DNA of 32,000 nucleotides from Halorhodospira halophila SL1 (GTDB lineage Bacteria > Pseudomonadota > Gammaproteobacteria > Nitrococcales > Halorhodospiraceae), in contig NC_008789.1 in NCBI RefSeq assembly GCF_000015585.1, forward strand, positions 1,380,001 to 1,412,000. Reading direction: 5' to 3'. The notes under the pieces are model-generated. The model made no database searches. It saw nothing but the letters and a program-made list of their open reading frames with translations, and was not told the origin of the DNA. A program made the translations under genes and the position numbers. This document shows positions 8,532 to 30,906 of this stretch, piece by piece; positions within the stretch are counted from its first letter, which is position 1; each line of letters begins with the position of its first letter.

Positions 8532-8606
8532 GGGCGGCTAGCTCAGCGGGAGAGCACTGCCTTCACACGGCAGGGGTCGCTGGTTCGATCCCAGCGCCGC
8601 CCACCA
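8532..8606 (+). tRNA. tRNA-Val (anticodon CAC)
   Basis: Hand-folded cloverleaf: GGGCGGC/TA/GCTC-AGCGGGA-GAGC/A/CTGCC-TTCACAC-GGCAG/GGGTC/GCTGG-TTCGATC-CCAGC/GCCGCCC-ACCA. 75 nt, CCA encoded. Confidence 0.9.
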
Positions 8607-8607
8607 A
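8562..8607 (+). repeat. attL: 46-bp direct repeat (3' part of tRNA-Val)
   Basis: TTCACACGGCAGGGGTCGCTGGTTCGATCCCAGCGCCGCCCACCAA is identical, checked base by base, to 27849-27894. Confidence 0.88.
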
Positions 8608-8920
8608 ATTTACGTTTCGCAACATCTAACAAAGCCTACCCTCCGCTCCCAAGGGCCTGATCCTACAAAGATTTAGGTCTCATCCTATTCACTACCGTCT
8701 ACGGCGGGCGACCCTCTTGTGTGGGTACTGGTGTGGGTGTAAGCGGCGGCACGACGCTTACTACCCACAGCGCGGGCAAGAACACCGCGAGCGCGCATGC
8801 TTCGGAGCCCGCGCTAGCGACCCGGTGTCAAACGTATTGCTGCTGACAACCCCTTAACTCTACGCGGGATCACGTCGAGCGATCGTGTCACCGAGCAGTA
8901 CGGGTATCACGGGAGGGGGC

Positions 8921-9265
8921 ATGACCCGGGGTATCAACAGACTGACCGACCGCCAGTGCCGGACGGCAAAGACGCCTGAAGGCAAAGAGCAGATCAAGCT
9001 CGCTGATGGCGGCGGACTCGTGTTGCTGGTCAAGCGCAACGGCGCCAAGCAATGGCAACTCCGCTACCGGCGACCTTCCGGACGCGAGGCAACGATGGGC
9101 CTCGGCGTCTACCCCGAGGTACCACTATCGAAAGCCAGGGAGCAGCGAGACGAGGCACGCTCCCTGCTCGCGGATGGCGTCGACCCCATTCAGCACCGCA
9201 GGACCCAAAGACACGCGGCCGCGTCAGCCGATGCGCACACGTTCGAGGCCGTCGCGCGTGAATGG
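8921..9265 (+). pseudogene. P4-type tyrosine integrase, N-terminal arm-binding (DUF4102-like) fragment only
   Basis: MTRGINRLTDRQCRTAKTPEGKEQIKLADGGGLVLLVKRNGAKQWQLRYRRPSGREATMGLGVYPEVPLSKAREQRDEARSLLADGVDPI is the typical N-terminus of tRNA-associated P4-like integrases. The reading frame is broken at 9266 by the IS30-family end. No catalytic domain follows. Confidence 0.8.
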
Positions 9266-10360
9266 GCTGATCTCAAGAATCAAGCGCAACAGTCTTCGAA
9301 AAGGCCTGAAGCTCTTCAGTCATGGCCTCCTCGGGCGTTCTGAAGTCCAGTGCCTTGCGTGGCCGCTGGTTGAGAAGCCGCGCAATATCATTGAGTTGGG
9401 TCTGGCTCGGCTCGCTGAGATCGGCGCCCTTGGGCAGGTACTGGCGCAGCAGGCCGTTGGTGTTCTCGTTGCTGCCACGCTGCCAGGGCGCGTGCGGATC
9501 GGCGAACCAGATCGACAGATTCAACCGCCGGGCAAGCCGCTCATGGCAGGCCATCTCGCTGCCCCGGTCGTAGGTCAGACTCTGACGCAGGATTGCCGGC
9601 AGGCGCCTCATCTGCCGATGGAAGCCCTCCAGGGCGGCCTCGGCGGTACCGTCGTGCATCTTGCTCAGTACGACGTAGCGGGTCTTGCGCTCAACCAGCG
9701 TGCCGACCGAGGAGCGGTTGTAGGCGCCCTTGATCAGGTCGCCCTCCCAGTGGCCGGGCATCAGCCGCTGCTCGATCTCTTCAGGCCGATAGGCGATGGG
9801 CAGGTGCTCCGGGGCGATCGAGCCGCCTCGCGCGGCCGTGCGCCGCCGTTGCCCGCGCTGCGGTTTCTGGCGGCGAAGCGCCCGGATCAGCTCCTGCTTG
9901 AGCGAGCCCTTGGGATGGGCATAGATCGCCGCGTAGATGGTCTCGTGGCTGACGCGAGCCTCAGGATCCTCGGGGTTCATACGCGCCAGTCTGCCGGCGA
10001 TCTGCTCGGGAGACCACTGCCAGTAGCACAGCCGGTCCAGGACATAGCGATACAGCCATCCGCCCTCAACCAGCTTGGCGGGGCGACCGCAGCGGCGCCG
10101 TCGGGCGCGGTACTCCTGCGCGCCCTGCGTCGGGCAGTACGCCGTCTCTGCCGCGGGGTCGCTGCCGCGGGCCAACTCCCGGGTCACCGTCGACGGACTG
10201 CGCCCGAGAAGGTGGCTGATCGCCCGCGCACTGCTGCCACGGCTGCGCTCACTCAAGATGACGGCGCGCTCCTGATCACTGAGATGCTGGTATCCGTTCG
10301 CCATCGCAACATCCTACCCCGCTCTGGGCATGGGTGTTGCGCTTGAAAGTTGAGCCTACG
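9266..10360 (-). mobile_element. IS30-family insertion sequence (apparently intact copy)
   Basis: The left end is defined by the start of identity with the second copy at 18521. The imperfect terminal inverted repeats share CTCAAnnnTCAAGCGCAACA (9272-9291) and its complement (about 10336-10355). The right end is approximate. Confidence 0.75.
9273..10304 (-). CDS. IS30-family transposase
   Basis: 343-aa ORF with an N-terminal HTH (LSDQERAVILSERSRGSSARAISHLLGRSPSTVTREL). The DDE region (HWEGDLI...TYDRGSEMA...PWQRGSNENTNGLLRQYLPKG) is typical of IS30 transposases. Confidence 0.9.
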   Translation of the reverse strand: MANGYQHLSDQERAVILSERSRGSSARAISHLLGRSPSTVTRELARGSDPAAETAYCPTQGAQEYRARRRRCGRPAKLVEGGWLYRYVLDRLCYWQWSPEQIAGRLARMNPEDPEARVSHETIYAAIYAHPKGSLKQELIRALRRQKPQRGQRRRTAARGGSIAPEHLPIAYRPEEIEQRLMPGHWEGDLIKGAYNRSSVGTLVERKTRYVVLSKMHDGTAEAALEGFHRQMRRLPAILRQSLTYDRGSEMACHERLARRLNLSIWFADPHAPWQRGSNENTNGLLRQYLPKGADLSEPSQTQLNDIARLLNQRPRKALDFRTPEEAMTEELQAFSKTVALDS

Positions 10361-11688: not shown

Positions 11689-11704
11689 CTGAATAAAGTT
11701 ACAG
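11689..11704 (+). promoter_or_regulatory. Candidate LexA (SOS) box overlapping the umuDC promoter
   Basis: CTGAATAAAGTTACAG fits CTG-N10-CAG with an AT-rich spacer. It lies 28 bp upstream of the umuD ATG. A TTGACG -35-like hexamer is at 11670-11675, and TAAAGT (-10-like) lies inside the box. Confidence 0.6.
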
Positions 11705-11731: not shown

Positions 11732-12160
11732 ATGACCGTGACCCACCTGCAGACCTGCGCCAGGGAGCCTGCCGCGCTGCGCCGCCCGCTCTTTCTGGAG
11801 CGCGTTGCCGCCGGCTTCCCCTCCCCGGCTCAGGACTACGTCGACCGGGCCCTCGATCTCAACGAGCTCTGCATCGAGCACCCGGCCGCGACCTACTTCG
11901 TCCGCGCCGCCGGCGAGTCGATGCTTGGCGTCGGCATCCACCCCGGCGACGTCCTGGTGGTGGATCGCGCCCTCGAGGCTCGGCACCGGGACATCGTCAT
12001 CGCCGCCTGGCAGGGCGAGCTTACGGTCAAACGGCTGGAGCTCCGGCCGACGCTGCGCCTGGTCGCCGAGAACGACGCCTTCCCGCCGATCGATATTGCC
12101 GAGCCGGAGATGCTTGAGATCTTCGGGGTGGTTACGTTCGTCATCCACGCCCTGCGCTGA
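11732..12160 (+). CDS. umuD: UmuD, S24 peptidase subunit of translesion DNA polymerase V
   Basis: [13 protein letters not shown] (Ala-Gly cleavage region), AGESM (Ser nucleophile) and LTVKRLE (Lys). The stop overlaps the umuC start (TGATG). Confidence 0.88.
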
Positions 12161-13431
12161 TGCCGGTCTACGCGCTGGTCGACGTGAACAGCTTCTATGC
12201 GAGCGCCGAGCGGCTCTTTCGGCCGGATCTCGTGGGGCGACCGGTGGTGGTGCTGTCCAATAATGACGGCTGCATCGTCGCCCGCTCCGCGGAGGCCAAA
12301 GCGCTGGGCGTGCCCATGGGTGAGCCGTACTTCCGTGTCCGCGACTGCCTGCGGGCCGCGGGCGCGGCGGTGTTCTCGTCGAACTACGCCCTGTACGCGG
12401 ATCTGTCATCGCGGGTCATGCGCACCCTCGAGGCACTCGCCCCCGCGGTGGAGATCTACTCGATCGATGAGGCGTTCCTGGATCTCACCGGGCTCGACAC
12501 ACTGACCGACACCGAACGCTTCGGCCAGGAGGTCCGCGCCCGCATCCGGGGCGATGTCGGGTTGCCGGTATGCGTCGGCATCGGCCCGACCAAGACGTTG
12601 GCCAAGCTCGCCAACCATGCCGCGAAGCAGGATCCCGAACGCCACGGCGTCGCCTGCCTGCGCGATCCGGCAGCGCGGGCCCGGGCGCTGCGGGCCACCC
12701 CGGTGAACGCGGTCTGGGGTGTCGGCCAACGGCTCGCCGATCGCCTGGCTGAGCTCGGCGTTCACACCGCCGAGGATCTCGCCAACTTATCGCCGAGGCG
12801 GATCCGTCAGCACTTCCCCGTGACCCTCGCACGGACGGCGGAGGAGCTGCGGGGCTGCGCCTGCCACGATCTTGAAAGCGAACCGGCACCCCGGCAGCAG
12901 ATCGTCTGCTCGCGTACTTTCGGCACGCCGGTTCGTGACGAGCCGGCGCTTCGCGAGGCCGTCGCGGATTACGCGGTGCGCGCCGCGGAGCGCCTGCGCG
13001 AGACCGGACAGCACGCCGCCGCCCTCTCCGTCTTTCTTCGCACCGACCCGCACCGGACCGCGGAGCCGCAGCACATGCCCACGGCGACGCGGCGGCTGAC
13101 GATTGCAACGGACGACACTCGCGACCTGTTGGCCGTTGCCCTTCGGATCGCCGAGGAGCTCTGGCGCCCCGGCCACGCCTACATCAAGGCCGGCGTGATG
13201 CTCGGGGAACTCCAGGCTCCCGGGATCTCCGGTGATCTCTTCGCCGACGACGCGGCGCGGGCTCGATCGGCGGACCTGATGCAAGCGGTCGATGCCATCA
13301 ACCGTCGCCACGGCCGCGCTGCCGTGACCTACGGCGTCCAACGCCGGGGGCGTGCCGAATGGCGAATGCGCCGCGACTACCTCTCCCCGGCCTACACGAC
13401 GCGGTGGACGGATCTGCCGGTGGTGGGGTGA
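12160..13431 (+). CDS. umuC: UmuC, Y-family translesion DNA polymerase V catalytic subunit
   Basis: [48 protein letters not shown] and SIDEAFLDL are canonical UmuC/Y-family motifs. Translationally coupled to umuD. Confidence 0.9.
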
Positions 13432-16144: not shown

Positions 16145-17146
16145 ATGACCGACAGCCTTCTGCGTCAGTGGACGATGCTCCAGCACATCCCCCGCCAGCC
16201 GCGGGGGATCAGCGCCGGCCAACTCCACGACCGGTTGCGCTGCGAGGGCTACGCGGTCTCGCTGCGCACCGTCCAGCGCGATCTCAACACCCTCTCCAGT
16301 GAATTCGCGCTGGTCTGCGAAAGCGTGGGCAACGAGCAGCACTGGTCGTGGCTCGCCGATGCGCCGGTGCTCGACGTCCCCGGTCTCTCGCCGGCGGCGG
16401 CGCTGGCCTTCCGGCTTGCCGAGCTCCACCTCGGCGCTCTGCTGGCTCCGGAGGCGCTACGGGCCCTGCGGCCGCACTTCGAGGCGGCCAAGCGGGTCCT
16501 CAACCAAGGCGGCTCGCAGCTCTCCCACTGGCCGAATCGTGTCCGCGTCCTGACCCGTTCCCAGCCCCTACTCGCCCCGGACGTCGACCCGGGGGTCTAC
16601 GACCGGATCTGCCAGGGACTCCTTGAGGGCCGGCAGCTCTACGTCCACTACCGCCCGCGTAGCCGGGGCAGCGAGCTGCGAAGCTACCGGATGCATCCGC
16701 TCGGGCTGGTTATGCGCGATCCGGTCAGCTACGTGGTGGCGACGCTGCGCGACTACACCGATGTCCGGCAGATGGCGCTGCACCGCTTCGAGGCGGTGGA
16801 GCTGCTCGACGACCCGATTGCCCCGCCGGCGGGCTTCGACCTGGATGCCTACATCCACGAGCAGCGGGCCTTCGATCTGCCCGACACCAACGAACCCGTC
16901 GCCCTGCACCTGCGGATCAGCGCCGGCGTGGCCGAGCATCTTACGGAGGCGCCGCTGTCCGAGGATCAACGGATCGAAGCCTGCGACGACGGCTGGTGGA
17001 GCCTGCGCGCCACGGTGCCCCTGACCGCACAACTGCGCTGGTGGCTGCTCGGCTTCGGGCAGGCGGTGCAGGTCCTCGAGCCGCAAGCGTTGCGAGACGA
17101 GCTCGCCGCCGAACTTCGGGCTGCGGCCGACTTGTACGACGAATAA
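16145..17146 (+). CDS. WYL-domain transcriptional regulator (HTH-WYL-WCX architecture, BrxR/CapW/PafBC-like)
   Basis: N-terminal wHTH (LLRQWTMLQHIPRQPRGISAGQLHDRLRCEGYAVSLRTVQRDLNTL). Central WYL-type segment (LYVHYRPRSRGSELRSYRMHPLGLVMRDPVSYVVATLRDYTDVRQMALHRFEAVELL). Confidence 0.85.
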   Translation: MTDSLLRQWTMLQHIPRQPRGISAGQLHDRLRCEGYAVSLRTVQRDLNTLSSEFALVCESVGNEQHWSWLADAPVLDVPGLSPAAALAFRLAELHLGALLAPEALRALRPHFEAAKRVLNQGGSQLSHWPNRVRVLTRSQPLLAPDVDPGVYDRICQGLLEGRQLYVHYRPRSRGSELRSYRMHPLGLVMRDPVSYVVATLRDYTDVRQMALHRFEAVELLDDPIAPPAGFDLDAYIHEQRAFDLPDTNEPVALHLRISAGVAEHLTEAPLSEDQRIEACDDGWWSLRATVPLTAQLRWWLLGFGQAVQVLEPQALRDELAAELRAAADLYDE

Positions 17147-19370: not shown

Positions 19371-19685
19371 ATGACGAGGCAAGCTACTCAGATGAGCAAG
19401 ACCAAGGCGAAGTCCAAGCGCACACGCTACACCCAGGCCTATCGAGACGAGGCGCTGGCGTTGGCCGAGCGCGTCGGCGTCAGCGAGGCGGCCCAGCAAC
19501 TCGGGATCCAGCCGGCGCAGATCTACCAGTGGCGCACCAAGGCCCGGACCGAAGCGGACCGCTCGCAGCGAGAGCGGGAGTTGGCCGAGGAGAATGCCCG
19601 GCTCAAGCGTCAGCTCTCGGAAGCGAATGAGGAGCTGTCGATCACAAAAAAGGCCGCGGCGTACTTCGCGAAAAACCAGAAGTGA
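19371..19685 (+). CDS. IS3-family transposase OrfA (HTH)
   Basis: 104 aa with an HTH (VSEAAQQLGIQPAQIYQWR) and a leucine-zipper-like tail. Contains the A6G frameshift site. Confidence 0.88.
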   Translation: MTRQATQMSKTKAKSKRTRYTQAYRDEALALAERVGVSEAAQQLGIQPAQIYQWRTKARTEADRSQRERELAEENARLKRQLSEANEELSITKKAAAYFAKNQK

Positions 19686-20548
19686 AGTACGCGTTCATCG
19701 ATCAGCAGCGTCACGAGCACCGGGTCCAGGCGATGTGCCGCGTCCTTGGCGTTGCTCGCAGCGGCTTCTACGCATGGTGTCGGAACAAAGCTGTCCGCGC
19801 CGCACGGGAAGAGCGCCAGCAGGCCTTTGATGGGCAGGTGCAAGAGGCCTTCGAAGACTCCAGGCAACGCTCTGGAGCGCCTCGACTGACGCGAGAGCTG
19901 GACGGGCAAGGCGTGTCGGCCAATCGCAAGACCGTGGCCCGGAGCATGCGCCGTCAGGGCCTCCGGGCACGCACGTCACGCCGGTTTAAGGTGACGACGA
20001 ACTCGGCTCACAGCCTGCCGGTCGCGCCAAACCACTTGGCCCAGCACTTTGAAGCGGAGCAGCGGAACCAGAAATGGACTGGCGACATCACGTATTTGGC
20101 GACCGGCGAAAGATGGCTCTATCTCGCGGTCGTCCTGGATCTTTGTGGCCGCAAAGTGATCGGTTGGGCCATGCGCGAGCAGATGAGCGCTGAACTGGCC
20201 TGTGAGGCGCTTCAGATGGCCCTGGAACGGCGAGGCTACCCCACGGGGGTCATCGTCCATACGGATCGAGGCAGCCAGTACTGCTCCCGTGCGTACCGCA
20301 GGCTCATCAGCGACTACGGGCTGATCAGCAGCATGAGCGCGAAGGGCAGCTGCTACGACAATGCCTGCAACGAGAGCTTTTTCCGTTCCCTGAAGGTCGA
20401 GGCCCTGCATGGCGAGAAATTCCCCACGCGGGCCTCGATGCGTGAGGCCGTCTTCGAATACATTGAGGGCTACTACAATCGCCGGCGTCTTCATAGCACG
20501 CTCGGGTACCTATCCCCGGACGACTACGAGGCCCGGCTTAATAGCTAA
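19682..20548 (+). CDS. IS3-family transposase OrfB (DDE/rve integrase core); normally expressed as an OrfAB fusion by -1 frameshifting
   Basis: WTGDITYL...HTDRGSQYCS...CYDNACNESFF...YYNRRRLHSTLGYLSP are the canonical IS3 DDE motifs. Confidence 0.9.
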   Translation: MKYAFIDQQRHEHRVQAMCRVLGVARSGFYAWCRNKAVRAAREERQQAFDGQVQEAFEDSRQRSGAPRLTRELDGQGVSANRKTVARSMRRQGLRARTSRRFKVTTNSAHSLPVAPNHLAQHFEAEQRNQKWTGDITYLATGERWLYLAVVLDLCGRKVIGWAMREQMSAELACEALQMALERRGYPTGVIVHTDRGSQYCSRAYRRLISDYGLISSMSAKGSCYDNACNESFFRSLKVEALHGEKFPTRASMREAVFEYIEGYYNRRRLHSTLGYLSPDDYEARLNS

Positions 20549-20578: not shown

Positions 20579-21316
20579 CCCGGCAGAGCGCTGCCAGCTC
20601 GCCGAAAGCACCTGCTCAACGGCGGGTTTGAGCCCCGGTGAGCGTCACAGATGACCAGCTCGACCCCGCACCCGTCAAACCCCGACCGATGACCTCGCGG
20701 AGGAACTGCTTCGAGAACCCCTCCGTCTCGTTCGACCCCAACGACAGGCCCAGTGCCTCCCAGCGCCCTACGGTGTTGACGCCGACCGCGATCAGGCAGG
20801 CCTTAGAGATCACCCGGCCGTGCTCGCGGACCTTGATGTAGGTGGCATCGAGCAAAAGAAATGGCCAGCGCCCCTCGCTCGGTCGGCTCAGGAACGCCCC
20901 CACCCCCTCGTCGATGAACTGGCACAGCCGCGAGACCTGCGAATTTGAGATCCCCTCCATGCAGACGGCCTTGACGAGCTCGTCGACGGAGCGGGTCGAC
21001 ACCCCCTGGATATAGGCCTCCTGAACAACCCCGACGAGCGCCTGCTACATTGCCGCCGCGGCTCCAGGAACGAGCGCAGATAGTTGGCGTGGCGCAGACG
21101 CGGCACCTTTAGCTCCATGGAGCCGACCCGTCTGTCTTAGCGCCGGCTACGGTAGCCGTTGCGATAGTCCGTGCGCTAATGGCGCTGATCCCCCCACATC
21201 GAGTCCGCCTTGGCCTCCATGAGCTGCTGGACGATTTCATGGACCAGCATGCGCAGAAAGTCGACGTCGCCACCCTTCTCAGCCATCTCCAGCAGTGCGA
21301 ACCTGTTATCAGCCAT
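20579..21316 (-). pseudogene. IS256-family transposase, degraded and 3'-truncated by IS3 copy 1
   Basis: My minus-strand translation gives MADNRFALLEMAEKGGDVDFLRMLVHEIVQQLMEAKADSMWGDQRH*, then YRNGYRSRR*DRRVGSMELKVPRLRHANYLRSFLEPRR. After a frameshift it reads STRSVDELVKAVCMEGISNSQVSRLCQFIDE...LLLDATYIKVREHGRVIS. These are typical IS256 motifs interrupted by stops and frameshifts. Confidence 0.8.
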
Positions 21317-23189: not shown

Positions 23190-23504
23190 ATGACGAGGCA
23201 AGCTATTCAGATGAGCAAGACCAAGACGAAATCCAAGCGCACACGCTACAGCCCGGCCTATCGAGACGAGGCGCTGGCGTTGGCCGAGCGCGTCGGCGTC
23301 AGCGAGGCGGCCCAGCAGCTGGGGCTCCAACCGCCGCAGATCTACCAGTGGCGCACCAAGGCCCGGAACGAAGCGGACCGCTCGCAGCGAGAGCGGGAGT
23401 TGGCCGAGGAGAATGCCCGGCTCAAGCGTCAGCTCTCGGAAGCGAATGAGGAGCTGTCGATCACAAAAAAGGCCGCGGCGTACTTCGCGAAAAACCAGAA
23501 GTGA
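23190..23504 (+). CDS. IS3-family transposase OrfA (copy 2)
   Basis: 104 aa, differing in a few residues from copy 1. The A6G slippery site is at 23465-23471. Confidence 0.85.
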   Translation: MTRQAIQMSKTKTKSKRTRYSPAYRDEALALAERVGVSEAAQQLGLQPPQIYQWRTKARNEADRSQRERELAEENARLKRQLSEANEELSITKKAAAYFAKNQK

Positions 23505-24369
23505 AGTACGCGTTCATCGATCAGCAGCGTCACGAGCACCGGATCCAGGCGATGTGCCGCGTCCTTGGCGTCGCTCGCAGCGGCTTCTACGCATGGTGCC
23601 GGAACAAGGCGGCCCGCGCCGCACGGGAAGAACGCCAGCAGGCCTTTGATGGGCAGGTGCAAGAGGCCTTCGAAGACTCCAGGCAACGCTCTGGAGCGCC
23701 TCGACTGACGCGAGAGCTGGACGGGCAAGGCGTGTCGGCCAATCGCAAAACCGTGGCCCGGAGCATGCGCCGTCAGGGCCTCCGGGCACGCACGTCACGC
23801 CGGTTTAAGGTGACGACGAACTCGGCTCACAGCCTGCCGGTCGCGCCAAACCACTTGGCCCAGCACTTTGAAGCCGAGCAGCGGAACCAGAAATGGACTG
23901 GCGACATCACGTATTTGGCGACCGGCGAAGGATGGCTCTATCTCGCGGTCGTCCTGGATCTTTGTGGCCGCAAAGTGATCGGTTGGGCCATATGCGCGAG
24001 CAGATGAGCGCTGAACTGGCCTGTGAGGCGCTTCAGATGGCCCTGGAACGGCGAGGCTACCCTACGGGTGTCATCGTCCATACGGATCGTGGCAGCCAGT
24101 ACTGCTCCCGTGCGTACCGCAGGCTCATCAGCGACTACGGGCTGATCAGCAGCATGAGCGCGAAGGGCAGCTGCTACGACAATGCCTGCAACGAGAGCTT
24201 TTTCCGTTCCCTGAAGGTCGAGGCCCTGCATGGCGAGAAATTCCCCACGCGGGCCTCGATGCGTGAGGCCGTCTTCGAATACATTGAGGGCTACTACAAT
24301 CGCCGGCGTCTTCATAGCACGCTCGGGTACCTATCCCCGGACGACTACGAGGCCCGGCTTAATAGCTAA
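23501..24369 (+). pseudogene. IS3-family transposase OrfB (copy 2), frameshifted
   Basis: Split into track ORFs 23501-24007 and 23893-24369 by the 2-bp insertion near 23990. Confidence 0.85.
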
Positions 24370-27333: not shown

Positions 27334-27615
27334 CTATCCAGACCTCCCTTGCATCGAGTCGGTGAACGAGGAATTCCGAGGACGCCCTTTGCGCGGCGCG
27401 CCCTTCTTCAATAACTTGGCCGGCTCAGCCCCTGGGTACTCCACCCTACTCTCAAGCCAGGCGTCCACGTCGTCCAGGCGCCAGCGGTAATGGCGGCCTA
27501 GCTTGATGTAGGGAGGCAAATCCTGACCTCGACAGAGCCTGGCACGAATCGCACCAGGCGCTAATCCGAGGTACTGTGCAAGATCGTTGGTGGTGAGAAG
27601 CGGTGGTCGGTGCAT
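27334..27615 (-). CDS. AlpA/excisionase-family (HTH_17) DNA-binding protein
   Basis: LLTTNDLAQYLGLAPGAIRARLCRGQDLPPYIKLGRHYRWRLDDVDAWLE is a typical MerR-like excisionase/AlpA fold. The gene sits next to attR, at the opposite end of the island from the integrase. Confidence 0.8.
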   Translation of the reverse strand: MHRPPLLTTNDLAQYLGLAPGAIRARLCRGQDLPPYIKLGRHYRWRLDDVDAWLESRVEYPGAEPAKLLKKGAPRKGRPRNSSFTDSMQGRSG

Positions 27616-27848: not shown

Positions 27849-27894
27849 TTCACACGGCAGGGGTCGCTGGTTCGATCCCAGCGCCGCCCACCAA
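27849..27894 (+). repeat. attR: 46-bp direct repeat copy of the tRNA-Val 3' end
   Basis: Identical to 8562-8607. The upstream tRNA half is absent, so this is not a second tRNA gene. Confidence 0.88.
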
Positions 27895-28084
27895 CTTCCC
27901 TGCGGCTTAAGCCTCTTCCACCAGGCTCTGGGTCGCTTAAGTCTCACAGCGCCCCCCTCCCCCGCCGTGACGCTCCCAAGTGCGTCATTGGATGATACCC
28001 TCGGAGTCTTGCAAACACGTCATCCTGGCGACAGGTGTCGCGTTGCTGGGACGCTTCTTCGCCTGACGACGAACGACCAGGATC

Positions 28085-28447
28085 ATGTCCGACCAATACC
28101 CTGAGTCCTTCCGAGAGTTCCAGCAGCAGCTACACAGTTTCGTCGCCGAGCGCGACTGGTCACAGTTCCATACCCCGAAGAACCTGGCTATGGCCCTGGC
28201 CGGCGAGGTCGGGGAACTCGTCGAGCATTTCCAATGGCTGAGCAACGAGGCCTCTGACAGCCTGCCGGTGGGAAAGCTAGCAGAGGTACGTCGTGAACTG
28301 GCGGACATCCAGATCTATACGCTGTTGCTGGCCAATCGGCTGGAGTTGGATCTTGCCGCGGCCGTCCGCGATAAGATTGCTGAAAACGAAGCCAAGTATC
28401 CGCCGGACCGCGCCTTCGGGCGGTCTGACAAGTACACCGATCTTTAA
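28085..28447 (+). CDS. MazG-type nucleoside triphosphate pyrophosphohydrolase (small all-alpha, DCTPP1-like)
   Basis: FVAERDWSQFHTPKNLAMALAGEVGELVEHFQW and RRELADIQIYTLLLANRLELDL carry the ExxE/ExxD metal-binding helices of the MazG-like family. 120 aa. Confidence 0.85.
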   Translation: MSDQYPESFREFQQQLHSFVAERDWSQFHTPKNLAMALAGEVGELVEHFQWLSNEASDSLPVGKLAEVRRELADIQIYTLLLANRLELDLAAAVRDKIAENEAKYPPDRAFGRSDKYTDL

Positions 28448-28455
28448 AGACCCTG

Positions 28456-30906
28456 ATGCTTGTCTATAGCGGCGACAAGAGCACCTTCCTCACGGATGTA
28501 GCGGATAACCGGATCTCGGATCGCATCCTCGCAGCCATGACCCGACGCAGTATGGGCGGGGTCAGTGAGAGCGAACGCCGATCCTGGGAGCAGTCCCTGC
28601 TCTACATGAAGAACGTGGTCGAGGACCCGAACATCCCGGATGACGCCGGCATCGCTGTGGAGTACCGCATCCCGCAGACATCCAAGCGGGTAGACGTCAT
28701 CATATCTGGCCTCGATGACGAACAACGCGAGTCCTGCGTCATCATTGAGCTCAAGCAGTGGCAGCACGCCGAGGCTACCGGCAAGGACGCCATCGTTCGC
28801 ACACTCCTAGGCGGTGGGATCCGGGAAACCACTCACCCCTCCTATCAGGCGTGGAGTTACAGCACGCTACTGGAGGATTTCAACGAAGCTGTGCAGAACG
28901 GCGGGATTCGGCTGACCCCGTGCGCCTATCTGCACAACTGCACCGACGGCAGCGGCCTCCAGGAACCACTCTACGACCGCTATCTGCAGTGCGCCCCGCT
29001 CTTCCTCCGGCACGACACACAAAAGCTGCGCGCGTTCATTCGGAGGTATGTCCGGTACGGTGACCATCGCCGCGTCCTTTATCGCATCGACCAAGGGCGT
29101 ATCCGCCCCTCCAAAGACTTGGCCAGTTCCCTCGCCCGTCTGATCCGCGGCAACCGAGACTTCCTGATGATCGACGACCAGAAGGTTGCCTACGAGGCTG
29201 CCCTGGAAGTCGGGACTATCGCTCAGGAATTCGGCAAGCAGGTACTGATCGTCGAAGGAGGTCCGGGCACGGGAAAGTCCGTAGTCGCCATCAACTTGCT
29301 GGTTGAACTGACCAAGCGCCACCAGACTGTCCACTACGTCACTCCGAACCGGGCGCCGCGGCAGGTCTACGAAGGACGGTTGACGGGCACTCTGACCAAA
29401 ACCCGGTTCAGCAACCTCTTCAAAGGGTCCGCCGCGTATGACAACGCGGAGCGTGACGAAATGGATGGGCTCCTCGTTGACGAAGCCCACCGCCTTCAGG
29501 AGCGCTCGCGGTGGCAGCGCGCTGGAACCAACCAGATCCGTGACATCATCCGCGCGGCCCGGACCAGCGTCTTTTTCGTCGATGAGGCGCAGCAGGTCAC
29601 CTGGAACGACACCGGCTCCATCCAGGAAATCGAGCGCTGGGCACGCGCTGAGGGGGCCACCATCCATCGCGCCGCACTGCAGTCACAGTTCCGCTGCAGC
29701 GGTTCCGACGGCTACCTGGCGTGGCTCGATCAAGCTCTCCAGATCCGCGACACGGCTCAGAAGGACCTGCACGGCATCCGTTACCACCTAGAAGCCGTTG
29801 ACTCCCCCCGAACCCTCTACCAGCGCATTGTGGAACTAGACGGCAACGGTTCCAGGGCTCGTTTGGTGGCCGGTTACTGCTGGGATTGGATCAGCAAGAA
29901 AGACCCCTGCGCGTGGGATATCACGTTCCCGGAAGAGAATCTCTTCATGCGGTGGAATCTTTACGAGGACGAGGGACGCTACCTGGAGAAGACGCACTCG
30001 ATCGATCAAGTCGGATGCATCCATACGGTACAAGGTCTGGAGATGGACTACGTGGGGGTGATCATTGGCCCCGACCTGATCGTGCGCAACGGCCACGTCG
30101 TCACCCAGCCCTCCAAACGGGCCCGCACGGACCGATCCCTTCACGGCTACAAGACTGCTCGCAAGGAGGCCCCGGAAGAGTGCGACGCCCGGGCGGACGC
30201 GATTATCAAGAACACCTATCGAACCTTGATGAGCCGCGGCCTCAAGGGGTGCCTGATCCACTGCACGGATCCGGAGACACAGGCCTACTTCCGGCAGGAG
30301 ATCGAGGCCGCTTTCTCCCAGCCTTCGGACAATACGGAGGCTTCGACGTTGCAGCCGGCGCCGGTCATTCCCCTGGATGAACAGTCATCGACCGAAGCGG
30401 AGGATGAACCGCGCACTATCCCCGCCGAAGCAGTCACGCCAGCGGATAACGCTGTGCCGTTTATCGAACTGGAGGCCGCTGCCGGAGAGTTTCAGGCGGG
30501 ATTCGCTGAGGCGGAGCGCCTTGAAGAGACGGAGACTTGGATTGCTTTGCCGGAACTCTACCGCGCCCGCCGCGGGTTGTTCGTTGCACGCGTCAAAGGA
30601 GAGTCCATGAATCGGCGCATCCCGAATGGCGCCTGGTGCCTCTTCGAGGCCAACCCCGGTGGATCGCGGCACGGCCGGGTCGTGCTCGCGTACCACCGGG
30701 ATATCCAGGACCCGGACAACAATTCTGCGCTGACTGTAAAACGGTACTACAGCGAGAAGATCACCTCGGCCGACGGCCAATGGCAGCACTCACGGATTAC
30801 CCTGGCCTGCGACACCCTGACCCCAGGCTATGAGGATATCGTGCTTGAGGAAGAGCAGGCGCGGGATCTTCGGATACTGGGAGAGTTCAAGGGCACCGTT
30901 GCCTGA
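28456..30906 (+). CDS. DUF2075-family (PD-(D/E)xK nuclease-like N-terminus plus P-loop SF1-like ATPase, Schlafen-helicase/Nhi-like) protein fused to a C-terminal LexA/UmuD-type S24 peptidase domain
   Basis: N-terminus KRVDVIISG...CVIIELKQW (D...ExK). Walker A VEGGPGTGKSVVAINL. Walker B LLVDEAHRL. C-terminal helicase-core motifs IHTVQGLEMDYVGVIIG and RTLMSRGLKGCLIH. An acidic linker follows, then VPFIELEAAAGEF (Ala676-Gly677), VKGESM (Ser717) and LTVKRYY (Lys762). It starts 8 nt after the MazG stop. Confidence 0.85.
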   Translation: MLVYSGDKSTFLTDVADNRISDRILAAMTRRSMGGVSESERRSWEQSLLYMKNVVEDPNIPDDAGIAVEYRIPQTSKRVDVIISGLDDEQRESCVIIELKQWQHAEATGKDAIVRTLLGGGIRETTHPSYQAWSYSTLLEDFNEAVQNGGIRLTPCAYLHNCTDGSGLQEPLYDRYLQCAPLFLRHDTQKLRAFIRRYVRYGDHRRVLYRIDQGRIRPSKDLASSLARLIRGNRDFLMIDDQKVAYEAALEVGTIAQEFGKQVLIVEGGPGTGKSVVAINLLVELTKRHQTVHYVTPNRAPRQVYEGRLTGTLTKTRFSNLFKGSAAYDNAERDEMDGLLVDEAHRLQERSRWQRAGTNQIRDIIRAARTSVFFVDEAQQVTWNDTGSIQEIERWARAEGATIHRAALQSQFRCSGSDGYLAWLDQALQIRDTAQKDLHGIRYHLEAVDSPRTLYQRIVELDGNGSRARLVAGYCWDWISKKDPCAWDITFPEENLFMRWNLYEDEGRYLEKTHSIDQVGCIHTVQGLEMDYVGVIIGPDLIVRNGHVVTQPSKRARTDRSLHGYKTARKEAPEECDARADAIIKNTYRTLMSRGLKGCLIHCTDPETQAYFRQEIEAAFSQPSDNTEASTLQPAPVIPLDEQSSTEAEDEPRTIPAEAVTPADNAVPFIELEAAAGEFQAGFAEAERLEETETWIALPELYRARRGLFVARVKGESMNRRIPNGAWCLFEANPGGSRHGRVVLAYHRDIQDPDNNSALTVKRYYSEKITSADGQWQHSRITLACDTLTPGYEDIVLEEEQARDLRILGEFKGTVA

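What the first reader, a model, noticed from the sequence alone, without database searches (positions are those of the whole stretch)
30475..30906. S24 tail keeps all LexA-type self-cleavage determinants, placed so that cleavage would detach the enzyme body
Seen in sequence: the tail has ELEAAAGEF with Ala676-Gly677 (nt 30481-30486; compare LexA VAAGEP). It has GESM with Ser717 (nt 30604-30606; LexA GDSM) and TVKR with Lys762 (nt 30739-30741; LexA/UmuD TVKR). The Ser-Lys spacing is 45 residues, against 37 in LexA and UmuD. The umuD in the same window shows the same three elements (AAGF, GESM, TVKRL). Established knowledge: these are the scissile bond and the Ser/Lys dyad of S24 autoproteolysis. 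Inference: cleavage would separate the ~675-aa nuclease/ATPase from a ~140-aa dimerising C-terminal domain. That would change its oligomeric state or relieve autoinhibition, making it a proteolytic switch on an enzyme rather than on a repressor.
Basis: partly seen in the sequence, partly recalled or inferred. Interest (0 to 1): 0.7.

Follow-up and report, generated by a model that had tools for sequence, protein, structure and literature searches.

The report
Self-cleaving LexA-type tail on defence nuclease-helicase
A bacterial nuclease-helicase of the anti-phage "Nhi-like" type ends in a LexA-like self-cutting domain with its cut site and catalytic residues intact, and the same tail turns up on many kinds of restriction enzyme, which suggests an undescribed direct link between the DNA-damage signal and DNA-cutting defence enzymes.

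Summary
ORF 28456..30906 (+, 816 aa) has Ala676-Gly677, Ser717 and Lys762 where stated. The tail passes Pfam Peptidase_S24. Its AlphaFold model matches only LexA, lambda cI and UmuD at the top of a PDB fold search. Profile alignments put AAG, GESM and TVK in the columns of LexA's cleavage site, Ser119 and Lys156.

The three determinants are near-invariant in about 180 orthologues from many phyla; P1 is only Ala or Cys. The 47-residue linker before the tail is unconstrained (11% identity). The body is a PD-(D/E)xK nuclease plus SF1/Schlafen-type helicase, usually paired with a MazG-like gene (here 28085..28447).

New here: the tail is a distinct S24 clade (about 1,400-2,200 clusters). It is nearly always C-terminal and has been shuffled among Type I, ISP/IIG, III-like and IV restriction enzymes, McrC, LlaJI, HNH and other defence ATPases. 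No paper describing this was found.

A proteolytic switch on an enzyme is therefore well supported by conservation, but not shown. Its trigger (RecA*) and its direction are inferred.

The parts
28085..28447 (+). MazG-like all-alpha NTP pyrophosphohydrolase gene (120 aa). It ends 8 nt before the nuclease-helicase ORF and is the conserved operon partner.
   Evidence: Pfam PF12643 MazG-like, E 1e-13, and PF03819. A homologue lies next to the DUF2075 gene in about 55-62 of 80 genome loci, in tailed and tail-less forms alike.
28456..30906 (+). Whole ORF, 816 aa: PD-(D/E)xK nuclease-like N-domain, SF1/Schlafen-group-3 helicase (DUF2075), disordered linker, S24 tail.
   Evidence: More than 8000 homologues; the top 120 are almost all 790-826 aa with the same architecture.
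28693..28755 (+). PD-(D/E)xK nuclease motif: D80 ... E98-L-K100.
   Evidence: D80, E98, L99 and K100 are invariant in the 33- and 68-sequence alignments. A strand-rich N-domain is predicted with high confidence.
29236..30270 (+). SLFN-g3/DUF2075 SF1 helicase core (aa 261-605). Walker A GGPGTGKS is at nt 29257-29280; Walker B D342-E343 is at nt 29479-29484.
   Evidence: Pfam PF09848, E 3e-103. Body model pLDDT 87.6, pTM 0.87. Top Foldseek hits are human SLFN11 and SLFN14, RecD2, Dna2 and Upf1.
30292..30432 (+). Acidic, Pro/Ala-rich linker (aa 613-659) between the enzyme body and the tail.
   Evidence: 11% mean identity to orthologues, against 51% for the body and 44% for the tail. Tail-less orthologues end at about aa 612-640.
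30433..30903 (+). S24 (LexA/UmuD/cI-type) self-cleavage domain, aa 660-816, including the strand before the cleavage site (NAVPFIE).
   Evidence: Pfam PF00717, 27.2 bits, above the gathering cut-off. AF2 model pLDDT 81.6. The 23 best PDB fold matches are all LexA, lambda cI or UmuD. hhalign to the window UmuD gives E 2e-5.
30481..30486 (+). Predicted scissile bond Ala676|Gly677 within A-A-A-G-E-F.
   Evidence: It aligns with A84-G85 of LexA and with AAG of the window UmuD. A675, A676 and G677 are kept in 118-119 of 119 close orthologues. Across phyla P1 is A (45), C (13) or V (1), and G is kept in 58 of 59. AAG+S+K is intact in 121 of about 134 cluster representatives that cover the site.
30604..30606 (+). 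Predicted nucleophile Ser717 (G-E-S-M).
   Evidence: Invariant in 119/119, 59/59 and 141/143 sequences. It aligns with LexA S119 and with GESM of UmuD.
30739..30741 (+). Predicted general base Lys762 (T-V-K-R).
   Evidence: Invariant in 119/119; kept in 58/59 and 140/143. It aligns with LexA K156 and with TVK of UmuD.

Best explanation
The 816-aa protein is a constitutively expressed, Nhi-like defence nuclease-helicase (PD-(D/E)xK nuclease plus SF1/DUF2075 helicase), encoded with a MazG-like partner. Its C-terminal 140-157 residues form a catalytically competent LexA-type S24 autoprotease that cuts its own chain at Ala676|Gly677.

The tail belongs to a distinct, mobile S24 clade that evolution has attached, through a floppy linker, to the C-termini of many unrelated restriction and defence enzymes. 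It most likely acts as a built-in sensor of the DNA-damage signal (RecA-ssDNA filaments) and regulates the enzyme after translation.

My preferred outcome is shut-off, a portable form of restriction alleviation. Cleavage would remove a generic dimerising domain. It would also leave the enzyme body ending in hydrophobic-Ala-Ala-COOH, the same kind of end that marks the LexA N-fragment and ssrA-tagged proteins for ClpXP. The nuclease would then be disarmed while the host chromosome is full of ssDNA gaps, forks and unmodified repair tracts.

Shown: the domain's identity, its aligned determinants, their conservation, its position and its modular spread. Inferred: actual cleavage, the RecA* trigger, dimerisation, the degron and the direction.

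The confidence given (0.4) is for the whole statement, including the shut-off direction. That the tail is a self-cleaving switch of some kind I rate at about 0.75.
For: 1. The residues are at the stated positions.
2. S24 identity: Pfam above the gathering cut-off. The tail model has pLDDT 81.6. The best 23 PDB fold hits are all LexA, lambda cI or UmuD; they include the cleavable-form LexA 1jhe, the hyper-cleavable cI 2hnf and the LexA-RecA complex 8gms.
3. hhalign places AAG, GESM and TVK in the LexA and UmuD columns.
4. Conservation: AAG, S717 and K762 are kept in 118-119 of 119 close orthologues. They are kept in 58-59 of 59 species-level orthologues, where P1 is only Ala or Cys, the two residues used by LexA/cI and UmuD. 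They are intact in 121 of about 134 50%-identity cluster representatives. The linker is only 11% identical.
5. Modularity: 2245 clusters at E<=1e-3 and 1409 at E<=1e-10. Canonical LexA and UmuD score 6 bits or less against the same profile. 131 of 145 domains are C-terminal. Partners are DUF2075, Type ISP/IIG, MmeI-like, DUF3427 Type IV, ResIII Type III-like, HsdR_N+SNF2, McrC-like, LlaJI, HNH, MZB helicases and HATPase_c_3. Tails are 32-49% identical across partners and intermix in a tree.
6. 19 of 80 orthologues lack the tail, at five or more places in the body tree, so it is an optional regulatory add-on.
7. There is no SOS-box enrichment upstream of 76 operons: 5 seen, 5.1 expected. Any SOS input would therefore be post-translational.
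8. The six LexA residues that form the pocket for RecA F203, and contact residue D151, map to hydrophobic family positions, to invariant F709 and to invariant D752.
9. P3-P1 is [A/V/I/L/F]-A-A in nearly all members. P2 Ala is invariant, although lambda cI and UmuD cleave with Gln at P2 (my knowledge).
10. Precedent for damage-linked proteolytic restriction alleviation: EcoKI and ClpXP (PMC11109961, abstract seen).
Against: - No biochemical evidence exists.
- The AAAGE loop has pLDDT below 50 in the model, so active-site docking is unverified.
- Sequence similarity to solved LexA proteins is weak: PDB hmmsearch gives E 0.28, and hhalign to E. coli LexA gives probability 14%.
- The pocket residues are also core hydrophobics, so their conservation is weak evidence for RecA binding. 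RecA-independent S24 cleavage exists (IrvR, PMC7101444, abstract seen).
- Bacteroidales members would end in -Ala-Ala-Cys, which is not a classic ClpX tag.
- Type IV and McrC-type partners do not attack unmodified host DNA, so classic restriction alleviation fits them less well.
- Full-length Nhi is an autoinhibited dimer whose N-terminal fragment is the active nuclease. That points towards activation by proteolysis.
Confidence: 0.4

Rival explanations
1. Activation switch. The tail holds the nuclease-helicase in an inactive state, dimeric or autoinhibited. Phage infection or DNA damage produces RecA filaments, the tail cuts itself off, and the freed body degrades DNA as direct defence or abortive infection.
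For: It rests on the same evidence for cleavage competence. Full-length Nhi, which has the same nuclease+DUF2075 architecture, is a dimer with almost no nuclease activity. Its N-terminal fragment is active, and an unexplained truncation occurs in cells (10.1101/776245). The gene sits among mobile and defence-type neighbours in many loci.
Against: The identical module sits on at least ten structurally unrelated enzyme classes, including ordinary R-M enzymes that need no activation signal. A tailored inhibitory interface with each is unlikely. 19 of 80 orthologues function without any tail and have no compensating partner gene. The Nhi fragment is the first 230 aa, not a body lacking its tail.
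Confidence: 0.22
2. A non-cleaving structural module. The S24 tail serves only as a dimerisation or RecA/partner-binding domain, and the Ser/Lys/Ala-Gly residues persist for structural reasons.
For: LexA-type C-domains are dimerisation domains (established knowledge). Many subfamily-specific invariant residues (N719, R721, P723, R738, H747, D752, Y764, S766, K768, W776, H778) are not explained by catalysis and may mark a binding surface. The cleavage loop is modelled with low confidence.
Against: The scissile Ala/Cys-Gly pair lies in a loop outside the barrel and has no structural role in LexA. Even so, it is kept in 58 of 59 and 121 of about 134 sequences, together with both catalytic residues. 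P1 varies only between the two residues known to be cleavable. The single member that lost the Gly also lost the Lys and the GxSM motif (L049), as expected if the three elements function as one unit.
Confidence: 0.12
3. Self-cleaving switch with a trigger other than RecA*. Cleavage is stimulated by a phage protein, a nucleotide signal (perhaps linked to the MazG-like partner), pH, or the enzyme's own DNA engagement.
For: RecA-independent processing of an S24 protein is documented (IrvR, PMC7101444, abstract). The clade is very remote from canonical LexA and UmuD, which score 6 bits or less, and it has its own invariant surface residues. A MazG-like partner is conserved.
Against: MazG-like accompanies tail-less forms equally often, so it is not tail-specific. 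The RecA-F203 pocket positions and the D151 equivalent are conserved in type. RecA* is the trigger for nearly all characterised S24 autoproteases (established knowledge).
Confidence: 0.15

Closest known systems
LexA (SOS repressor), peptidase family S24
   Same: Same fold (top Foldseek hits). The hydrophobic strand with Pro, then the A-A-G site, the G-x-S-M serine and the T-V-K lysine fall in aligned columns. Cleavage separates an N-terminal functional part from the C-terminal catalytic domain. The N-fragment would end in hydrophobic-Ala-Ala, as LexA 1-84 does (VAA).
   Different: The N-terminal part is a 612-aa nuclease-helicase plus a 47-aa linker, not a winged-helix DNA-binding domain. Ser-Lys spacing is 45, not 37. 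There are extra loops after H747 and after K762, the latter with invariant W776 and H778. The clade profile scores LexA at only 5.6 bits.
UmuD (including the window's own copy at 11732..12160)
   Same: It is the one classic S24 protein that is not a repressor: cleavage changes the activity of an enzyme complex (Pol V). The window UmuD shares AAG, GESM and TVKR and aligns at E 2e-5. Bacteroidales members of the tail clade use UmuD's Cys-Gly site.
   Different: UmuD is a free-standing 140-aa protein that loses a 24-aa peptide. Here the S24 domain is covalently fused to the enzyme, and the large piece is what is released. The window's umuDC lies on an unrelated integrated island.
Nhi / Nhi-like single-protein anti-phage nuclease-helicases (Bari et al., 10.1101/776245; Millman et al., 10.1101/2022.05.11.491447)
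   Same: N-terminal PD-(D/E)xK nuclease plus DUF2075 SF1 helicase. Nhi is reported as a dimer with an autoinhibited nuclease.
   Different: The PADLOC Nhi and AbiO models match only the P-loop region, at E about 2e-10. Neither paper's main text, searched for 'DUF2075' and 'S24', mentions an S24 tail or a MazG-like partner for Nhi or Nhi-like. Defence activity of this family is untested.
ClpXP-dependent restriction alleviation of Type I enzymes (EcoKI)
   Same: Proteolytic down-regulation of a restriction enzyme when DNA damage or recombination creates vulnerable host DNA (PMC11109961). This is the proposed logic for the S24 tail, and an HsdR_N+SNF2 protein (P0361) carries the tail.
   Different: In EcoKI the signal is the enzyme's own engagement with unmodified DNA, and no S24 domain is involved. 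Here the enzyme would carry its own RecA*-responsive cutter. This mechanism is inferred, not shown.

Membership tests
Peptidase S24 self-cleaving proteins (LexA/UmuD/lambda cI) | S24 beta-barrel fold | tested here: met
   Pfam PF00717 at 27.2 bits, against a 23.3-bit cut-off. AF2 model pLDDT 81.6. Foldseek ranks 1-23 are all LexA, cI or UmuD, with E down to 5e-5 and TM up to 0.76.
Peptidase S24 self-cleaving proteins (LexA/UmuD/lambda cI) | Ser nucleophile in G-x-S-M and Lys general base in T-V-K, in the family's columns | tested here: met
   hhalign to the window UmuD and to E. coli LexA. hmmsearch alignments to PDB LexA proteins at GESM. S717 and K762 are invariant.
Peptidase S24 self-cleaving proteins (LexA/UmuD/lambda cI) | Ala/Cys-Gly scissile bond on a strand-loop 35-40 residues before the Ser | tested here: met
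   A676-G677 aligns with LexA A84-G85 and with AAG of UmuD. Gly-to-Ser distance is 40, against 35 in the window UmuD. P1 is Ala or Cys in 58 of 59.
Peptidase S24 self-cleaving proteins (LexA/UmuD/lambda cI) | Cleavage loop able to dock in the active site (cleavable conformation) | tested here: inconclusive
   Loop residues 674-678 have pLDDT below 50. Foldseek aligns 159 columns to the cleavable LexA 1jhe and the hyper-cleavable cI 2hnf, but at rmsd 4.9-6.2 A.
Peptidase S24 self-cleaving proteins (LexA/UmuD/lambda cI) | Demonstrated autoproteolysis (alkaline pH or RecA*) | not testable with these tools
   Needs biochemistry.
LexA/cI-type repressors | N-terminal DNA-binding (wHTH/HTH) domain, operator binding | tested here: not met
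   The N-terminal 612 aa are a nuclease plus DUF2075 helicase. No HTH family was hit.
Nhi / Nhi-like anti-phage nuclease-helicase | PD-(D/E)xK nuclease N-domain plus DUF2075 helicase in one chain | tested here: met
   D80, E98 and K100 are invariant. PF09848, E 3e-103. SF1B-like fold hits.
Nhi / Nhi-like anti-phage nuclease-helicase | Sequence membership in the curated defence HMMs (PADLOC Nhi, AbiO) | tested here: inconclusive
   Only the P-loop segment, aa 255-386, matches, at E about 2e-10. The best PADLOC hit is the candidate PDC-S41, on the N-terminal segment, at E 1e-14.
Nhi / Nhi-like anti-phage nuclease-helicase | Protection against phage | not testable with these tools
   Needs plaque assays.

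The most novel reading that the evidence does not exclude
A large, previously undescribed clade of LexA-type autoprotease domains is a portable C-terminal 'SOS plug-in'. It wires RecA-filament sensing directly into the stability or activity of restriction and defence nucleases of nearly every class: Type I, ISP/IIG, III-like, IV, McrC, LlaJI, HNH, Nhi-like, MORC-like and DrmA/MrfA-like. This would be a general, horizontally transferable mechanism of restriction alleviation (or, alternatively, of damage-triggered activation). It would also be the first family of S24 switches that act on enzymes by covalent fusion.
Probability: 0.45. Interest if true: 0.85.

Novelty: new variant of a known kind. 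Interest (0 to 1): 0.72.

Why it matters
S24 self-cleavage is the textbook switch of the SOS response and of prophage induction. Its known substrates are repressors and the small UmuD subunit. A covalent S24 switch on DNA-cutting defence enzymes would give a direct post-translational link between RecA filaments and restriction or defence activity.

It would address an old question: how cells stop their own restriction enzymes from killing them during DNA repair. So far this has been answered mechanistically mainly for Type I enzymes, through ClpXP. The idea becomes directly testable with simple point mutants (S717A, K762A, G677D). The module's spread across thousands of protein clusters and many phyla suggests the mechanism is general. 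The tail could also be used as a damage-responsive, portable control element in engineering.

Tried and rejected
- A single-sequence phmmer search of the tail against the PDB found no LexA. The profile search found LexA only weakly, at E 0.28. Fold search and hhalign were needed.
- The body alone had no PDB sequence hit.
- 'Standalone' 150-260-aa tail proteins on megabase contigs might have been a separate-gene architecture. The two examined are deletion remnants: P0001 lies beside an IS, and P0055 is MazG-like plus a 260-aa stump. L020 is a frameshift split.
- Transcriptional SOS control was rejected. There is no CTGT-N8-ACAG box upstream of the window operon beyond one 1-mismatch match at chance frequency, and no enrichment across 76 operons.
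- A phage or plasmid origin was rejected. There were no phage hits and only one Halomonas megaplasmid hit.
- The neighbour analysis found no conserved third gene that distinguishes tailed from tail-less loci.
- Promoter/terminator scanning and the Rfam search of the region gave nothing relevant.
- All ten literature searches (DUF2075+S24, DUF2075+LexA, Nhi, S24 peptidase+anti-phage, DUF3427, restriction alleviation+autocleavage, and others) found no description of the fusion. Subscription-only papers are not covered.
- The Neher et al. 2003 paper on ClpX signals in LexA could not be retrieved. That point rests on my own knowledge.
Full report
**1. Observation**

The window holds one uninterrupted ORF at 28456..30906 on the + strand, 816 aa.
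- ELEAAAGEF at aa 671-679;
- Ala676-Gly677 at nt 30481-30486;
- GESM with Ser717 at nt 30604-30606;
- TVKR with Lys762 at nt 30739-30741.

Ser-Lys spacing is 45. The window's own UmuD (11732..12160) reads AAGF, GESM and TVKRL, with G28, S63 and K100, so its spacing is 37. One small correction, from my memory of the sequence: E. coli LexA itself reads GMSM. GDSM/GESM is the usual family form.

**2. What the protein is**

Pfam gives SLFN-g3_helicase/DUF2075 at aa 261-605 (E 3e-103). It gives Peptidase_S24 at aa 677-767, at 27.2 bits against a gathering cut-off of 23.3.

The N-terminal domain carries an invariant D80...E98-L-K100 PD-(D/E)xK motif. Walker A (GGPGTGKS, aa 268-275) and Walker B (D342-E343) are intact.

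An AlphaFold model of aa 1-620 is confident (pLDDT 87.6, pTM 0.87). Its best PDB neighbours are human SLFN11 and SLFN14, RecD2, Dna2 and Upf1-type SF1 helicases. 'Nuclease/ATPase body' is therefore justified. The architecture is that of Nhi and 'Nhi-like' anti-phage proteins. However, the PADLOC Nhi and AbiO models match only the P-loop segment, and the best PADLOC hit is the candidate PDC-S41.

A MazG-like NTP pyrophosphohydrolase gene (28085..28447; PF12643) ends 8 nt upstream of the ORF.

**3. Is the tail really a LexA-type self-cleaving domain?**

Single-sequence and profile searches against PDB sequences are weak. LexA proteins are the top three hits, but at E 0.28 or worse. Structure settles the question.
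- A model of aa 655-816, built from 72 homologues, has pLDDT 81.6.
- Its 23 best PDB matches are all LexA, lambda cI or UmuD. They include the cleavable-form LexA 1jhe, the hyper-cleavable cI fragment 2hnf and LexA on a RecA filament (8gms). Signal peptidases follow.
- Profile-sequence alignment to the window's UmuD (E 2e-5) and to E. coli LexA (E 2e-3; sequence from memory) puts VP-h-h-x-x-AAG, G-E-S-M and T-V-K in the columns of the LexA cleavage site, Ser119 and Lys156.

One thing could not be checked. Whether the loop can sit in the active site therefore remains open.

**4. Conservation**

| Set | Result |
|---|---|
| 119 full-length homologues (50-93% identical) | A675, A676 and G677 kept in 118-119; F679 in 118; G715, S717, M718 and K762 in 119 |
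| 59 tailed orthologues from a scan of species-representative genomes | A675 59/59; P1 is Ala 45, Cys 13, Val 1; G677 58/59; S717 59/59; K762 58/59 |

The genome-scan orthologues come from Gamma-, Beta-, Zeta- and Deltaproteobacteria, Verrucomicrobia, Nitrospira, Kiritimatiellae, Elusimicrobia and Bacteroidales.

Cys-Gly is the UmuD-type site. It is used by all the Bacteroidales members and by one Elusimicrobiaceae member, L047.

The one member that lost the Gly (L049) also lost the Lys and the GxSM motif. This is what one expects if the three elements work as a unit.

Identity to the query is 51% in the body, 44% in the tail and 11% in the linker at aa 613-659. So the cut site sits behind an unconstrained tether, and cleavage would release the entire enzyme body (676 aa) from a 140-aa domain.

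**5. The tail is optional**

- 19 of the 80 genome loci encode close relatives that stop at about aa 612-640. They are 51-54% identical over the body.
- One locus (L020) is split by a frameshift.
- In a neighbour-joining tree of the body, the tail-less forms fall in at least five places. The tree has no bootstrap support.
- The MazG-like gene is adjacent in about 55-62 of 80 loci, whether or not the tail is present. It is the only conserved neighbour.
- Short 'S24-only' proteins on long contigs are deletion remnants.

**6.

A profile of the tail, searched against 1.84 billion cluster representatives, finds 2245 clusters at E<=1e-3, 1409 at E<=1e-10 and 391 at E<=1e-30. Canonical LexA and UmuD score 6 bits or less against the same profile, while members score 160 bits or more. 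This is a sharply separate S24 clade.

In the best 145 domains, AAG+Ser+Lys is intact in 121, and 131 domains lie within 25 residues of the C-terminus.

The long proteins among these hits are not only DUF2075 enzymes. They include:
- Type ISP/IIG restriction-methyltransferases (PADLOC REase_MTase_IIG, E 3e-139);
- an MmeI-like enzyme;
- DUF3427 SauUSI-type Type IV enzymes (mREase_IV, E 2e-86);
- ResIII Type III-like and SNF2 helicases;
- an HsdR_N+SNF2 protein;
- a McrC-like protein;
- a LlaJI endonuclease;
- an HNH protein;
- MZB (MrfA/DrmA-type) helicases;
- HATPase_c_3 proteins.

The window's tail is 32-49% identical to tails on all of these. Tails from different partner classes intermix in a tree, which indicates repeated domain shuffling.

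In Spiribacter roseus, the DUF2075-S24 gene sits beside a SauUSI-like enzyme that carries a more divergent internal S24 domain, with KIACG and GDSM.

Ten full-text searches found no paper describing any of this.

**7. How it most likely works**

What is shown:
- a bona fide S24 domain with all self-cleavage determinants;
- strong selection on those determinants;
- a position that detaches the enzyme body;
- modular spread of the domain.

What is inferred:

(a) It cleaves itself. I rate this at about 0.75, because a loop-borne Ala/Cys-Gly has no other known reason to be conserved together with the dyad.

(b) The trigger is RecA*. The six LexA residues that form the pocket for RecA Phe203 are V79, V82, F111, L113, V146 and V153. 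They map to I670, A674, F709, A711, L744 and L759. All of these are hydrophobic in the family, and F709 is invariant. The contact residue D151 maps to invariant D752. This is consistent with RecA binding but weak, because these are also core positions. RecA-independent S24 processing exists (IrvR). The operon has no SOS box, so any damage input would have to act on the protein.

(c) The direction of the switch. A module that works on ten or more structurally unrelated enzymes needs a mechanism that does not depend on the partner. Two such mechanisms exist, and both switch the enzyme off:
- loss of a generic dimerising domain;
- exposure of a new C-terminus. P3-P1 is [A/V/I/L/F]-Ala-Ala in nearly all members. 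This resembles LexA's VAA and the ssrA LAA end recognised by ClpXP (my knowledge: Neher et al. 2003; the paper was not retrievable). P2 Ala is invariant, although cI and UmuD cleave with Gln at P2.

Proteolytic restriction alleviation during DNA repair is an established need, and ClpXP provides one solution for EcoKI (PMC11109961). I therefore favour a portable, RecA-sensing shut-off.

Full-length Nhi is an autoinhibited dimer, and its N-terminal fragment is the active nuclease.

Points against the shut-off reading:
- Bacteroidales members would end in -Ala-Ala-Cys.
- Type IV and McrC-type partners do not threaten unmodified host DNA.

**8. Comparison and novelty**

The tail works like LexA, UmuD and cI, and it passes the sequence and fold tests for S24. 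It is not a LexA-type repressor, because it has no DNA-binding domain. It lies in its own clade.

The nearest functional analogue is UmuD, where cleavage alters an enzyme complex. UmuD, however, is free-standing.

I rate the finding a new variant of a known kind. The chemistry is familiar, and the deployment is new and widespread. Actual cleavage, the trigger and the outcome all need experiments.

**9. Context in the window**

The 3' 47 nt of tRNA-Val(cac), at 8562-8608, are repeated exactly at 27849-27895. The repeats bracket a decayed 19.3-kb island. It carries a P4-type integrase stump broken by an IS30-like element, umuDC, a WYL/WCX regulator, IS3 and IS66 copies, and an AlpA-like gene.

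The MazG-like/DUF2075-S24 operon starts 190 nt beyond the right repeat, outside the island.

The closest relatives of the protein come from Ectothiorhodospiraceae-type halophilic Gammaproteobacteria: Halorhodospira, Spiribacter and Thioalkalivibrio.

Noticed in passing
window 8562-8608 and 27849-27895: An exact 47-nt direct repeat of the 3' end of tRNA-Val(cac) brackets a decayed integrated island of about 19.3 kb. The island carries a P4-type integrase N-terminus (8885..9343) cut by an IS30-like transposase (9273..10304, - strand), umuDC, a WYL/WCX regulator, IS3 and IS66 copies, and an AlpA-like HTH gene (27334..27615, - strand). The operon under study begins 190 nt outside the right repeat.
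   Followed up: yes
window 28085-28447: A MazG-like NTP pyrophosphohydrolase gene is the only conserved neighbour of this nuclease-helicase family. It is adjacent in about 55-62 of 80 loci: usually just upstream or overlapping, downstream in Halomonas, and present in tailed and tail-less forms alike. Its role in the two-gene module is unknown.
   Followed up: partly
L001:1994-5272 (- strand), Spiribacter roseus CP016382.1: A 1092-aa SauUSI-like protein (PLD nuclease, SF2 helicase, DUF3427) carries an internal, more divergent S24 domain at aa 828-942, with KIACGHF and GDSM. Its Lys position seems to read R/E. It is divergently adjacent to that genome's DUF2075-S24 gene, so one locus holds two S24-bearing nucleases.
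   Followed up: partly
window 30433-30903 (aa 660-816): Many residues are invariant or near-invariant in this S24 clade but absent from LexA and UmuD: N719, R721, P723, N724, C728, G736, R738, H747, R748, D752, Y764, S766, K768, W776 and H778. Catalysis does not explain them. They may mark a binding surface for RecA, for a partner or for a ligand.
   Followed up: no
window 30499-30513 (aa 682-686, GFAEA): The window protein has a 5-residue insertion just after the cleavage site. About 75% of close homologues lack it. Its effect on the cleavage loop is unknown.
   Followed up: no
L049 (Desulfocapsa MAG) and L020 (Vreelandella malpeensis): L049 has a degenerate tail in which the Gly, the GxSM motif and the Lys are lost together (AVESS / DESTD / TVEVY). 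L020 has the tail split from the body by a frameshift. These are examples of decay of the module.
   Followed up: partly
window 16145-17146 and 11732-13431: A WYL/WCX-domain regulator, of the kind found in DriD/PafBC-type ssDNA-sensing damage regulators, lies on the same island as umuDC. Upstream of umuD there is a 1-mismatch SOS-like box (CTGAATAAAGTTACAG, 11689-11704).
   Followed up: no
window 19371-20548 and 23190-24007: There are two copies of an IS3-family element, one of them partial. They share the sequence CTGTGAGGCGCTTCAG at 20200 and at 24021. A Mutator-family transposase fragment (20616..21002, - strand) and a PQQ/BamB-like gene lie between them.
   Followed up: no
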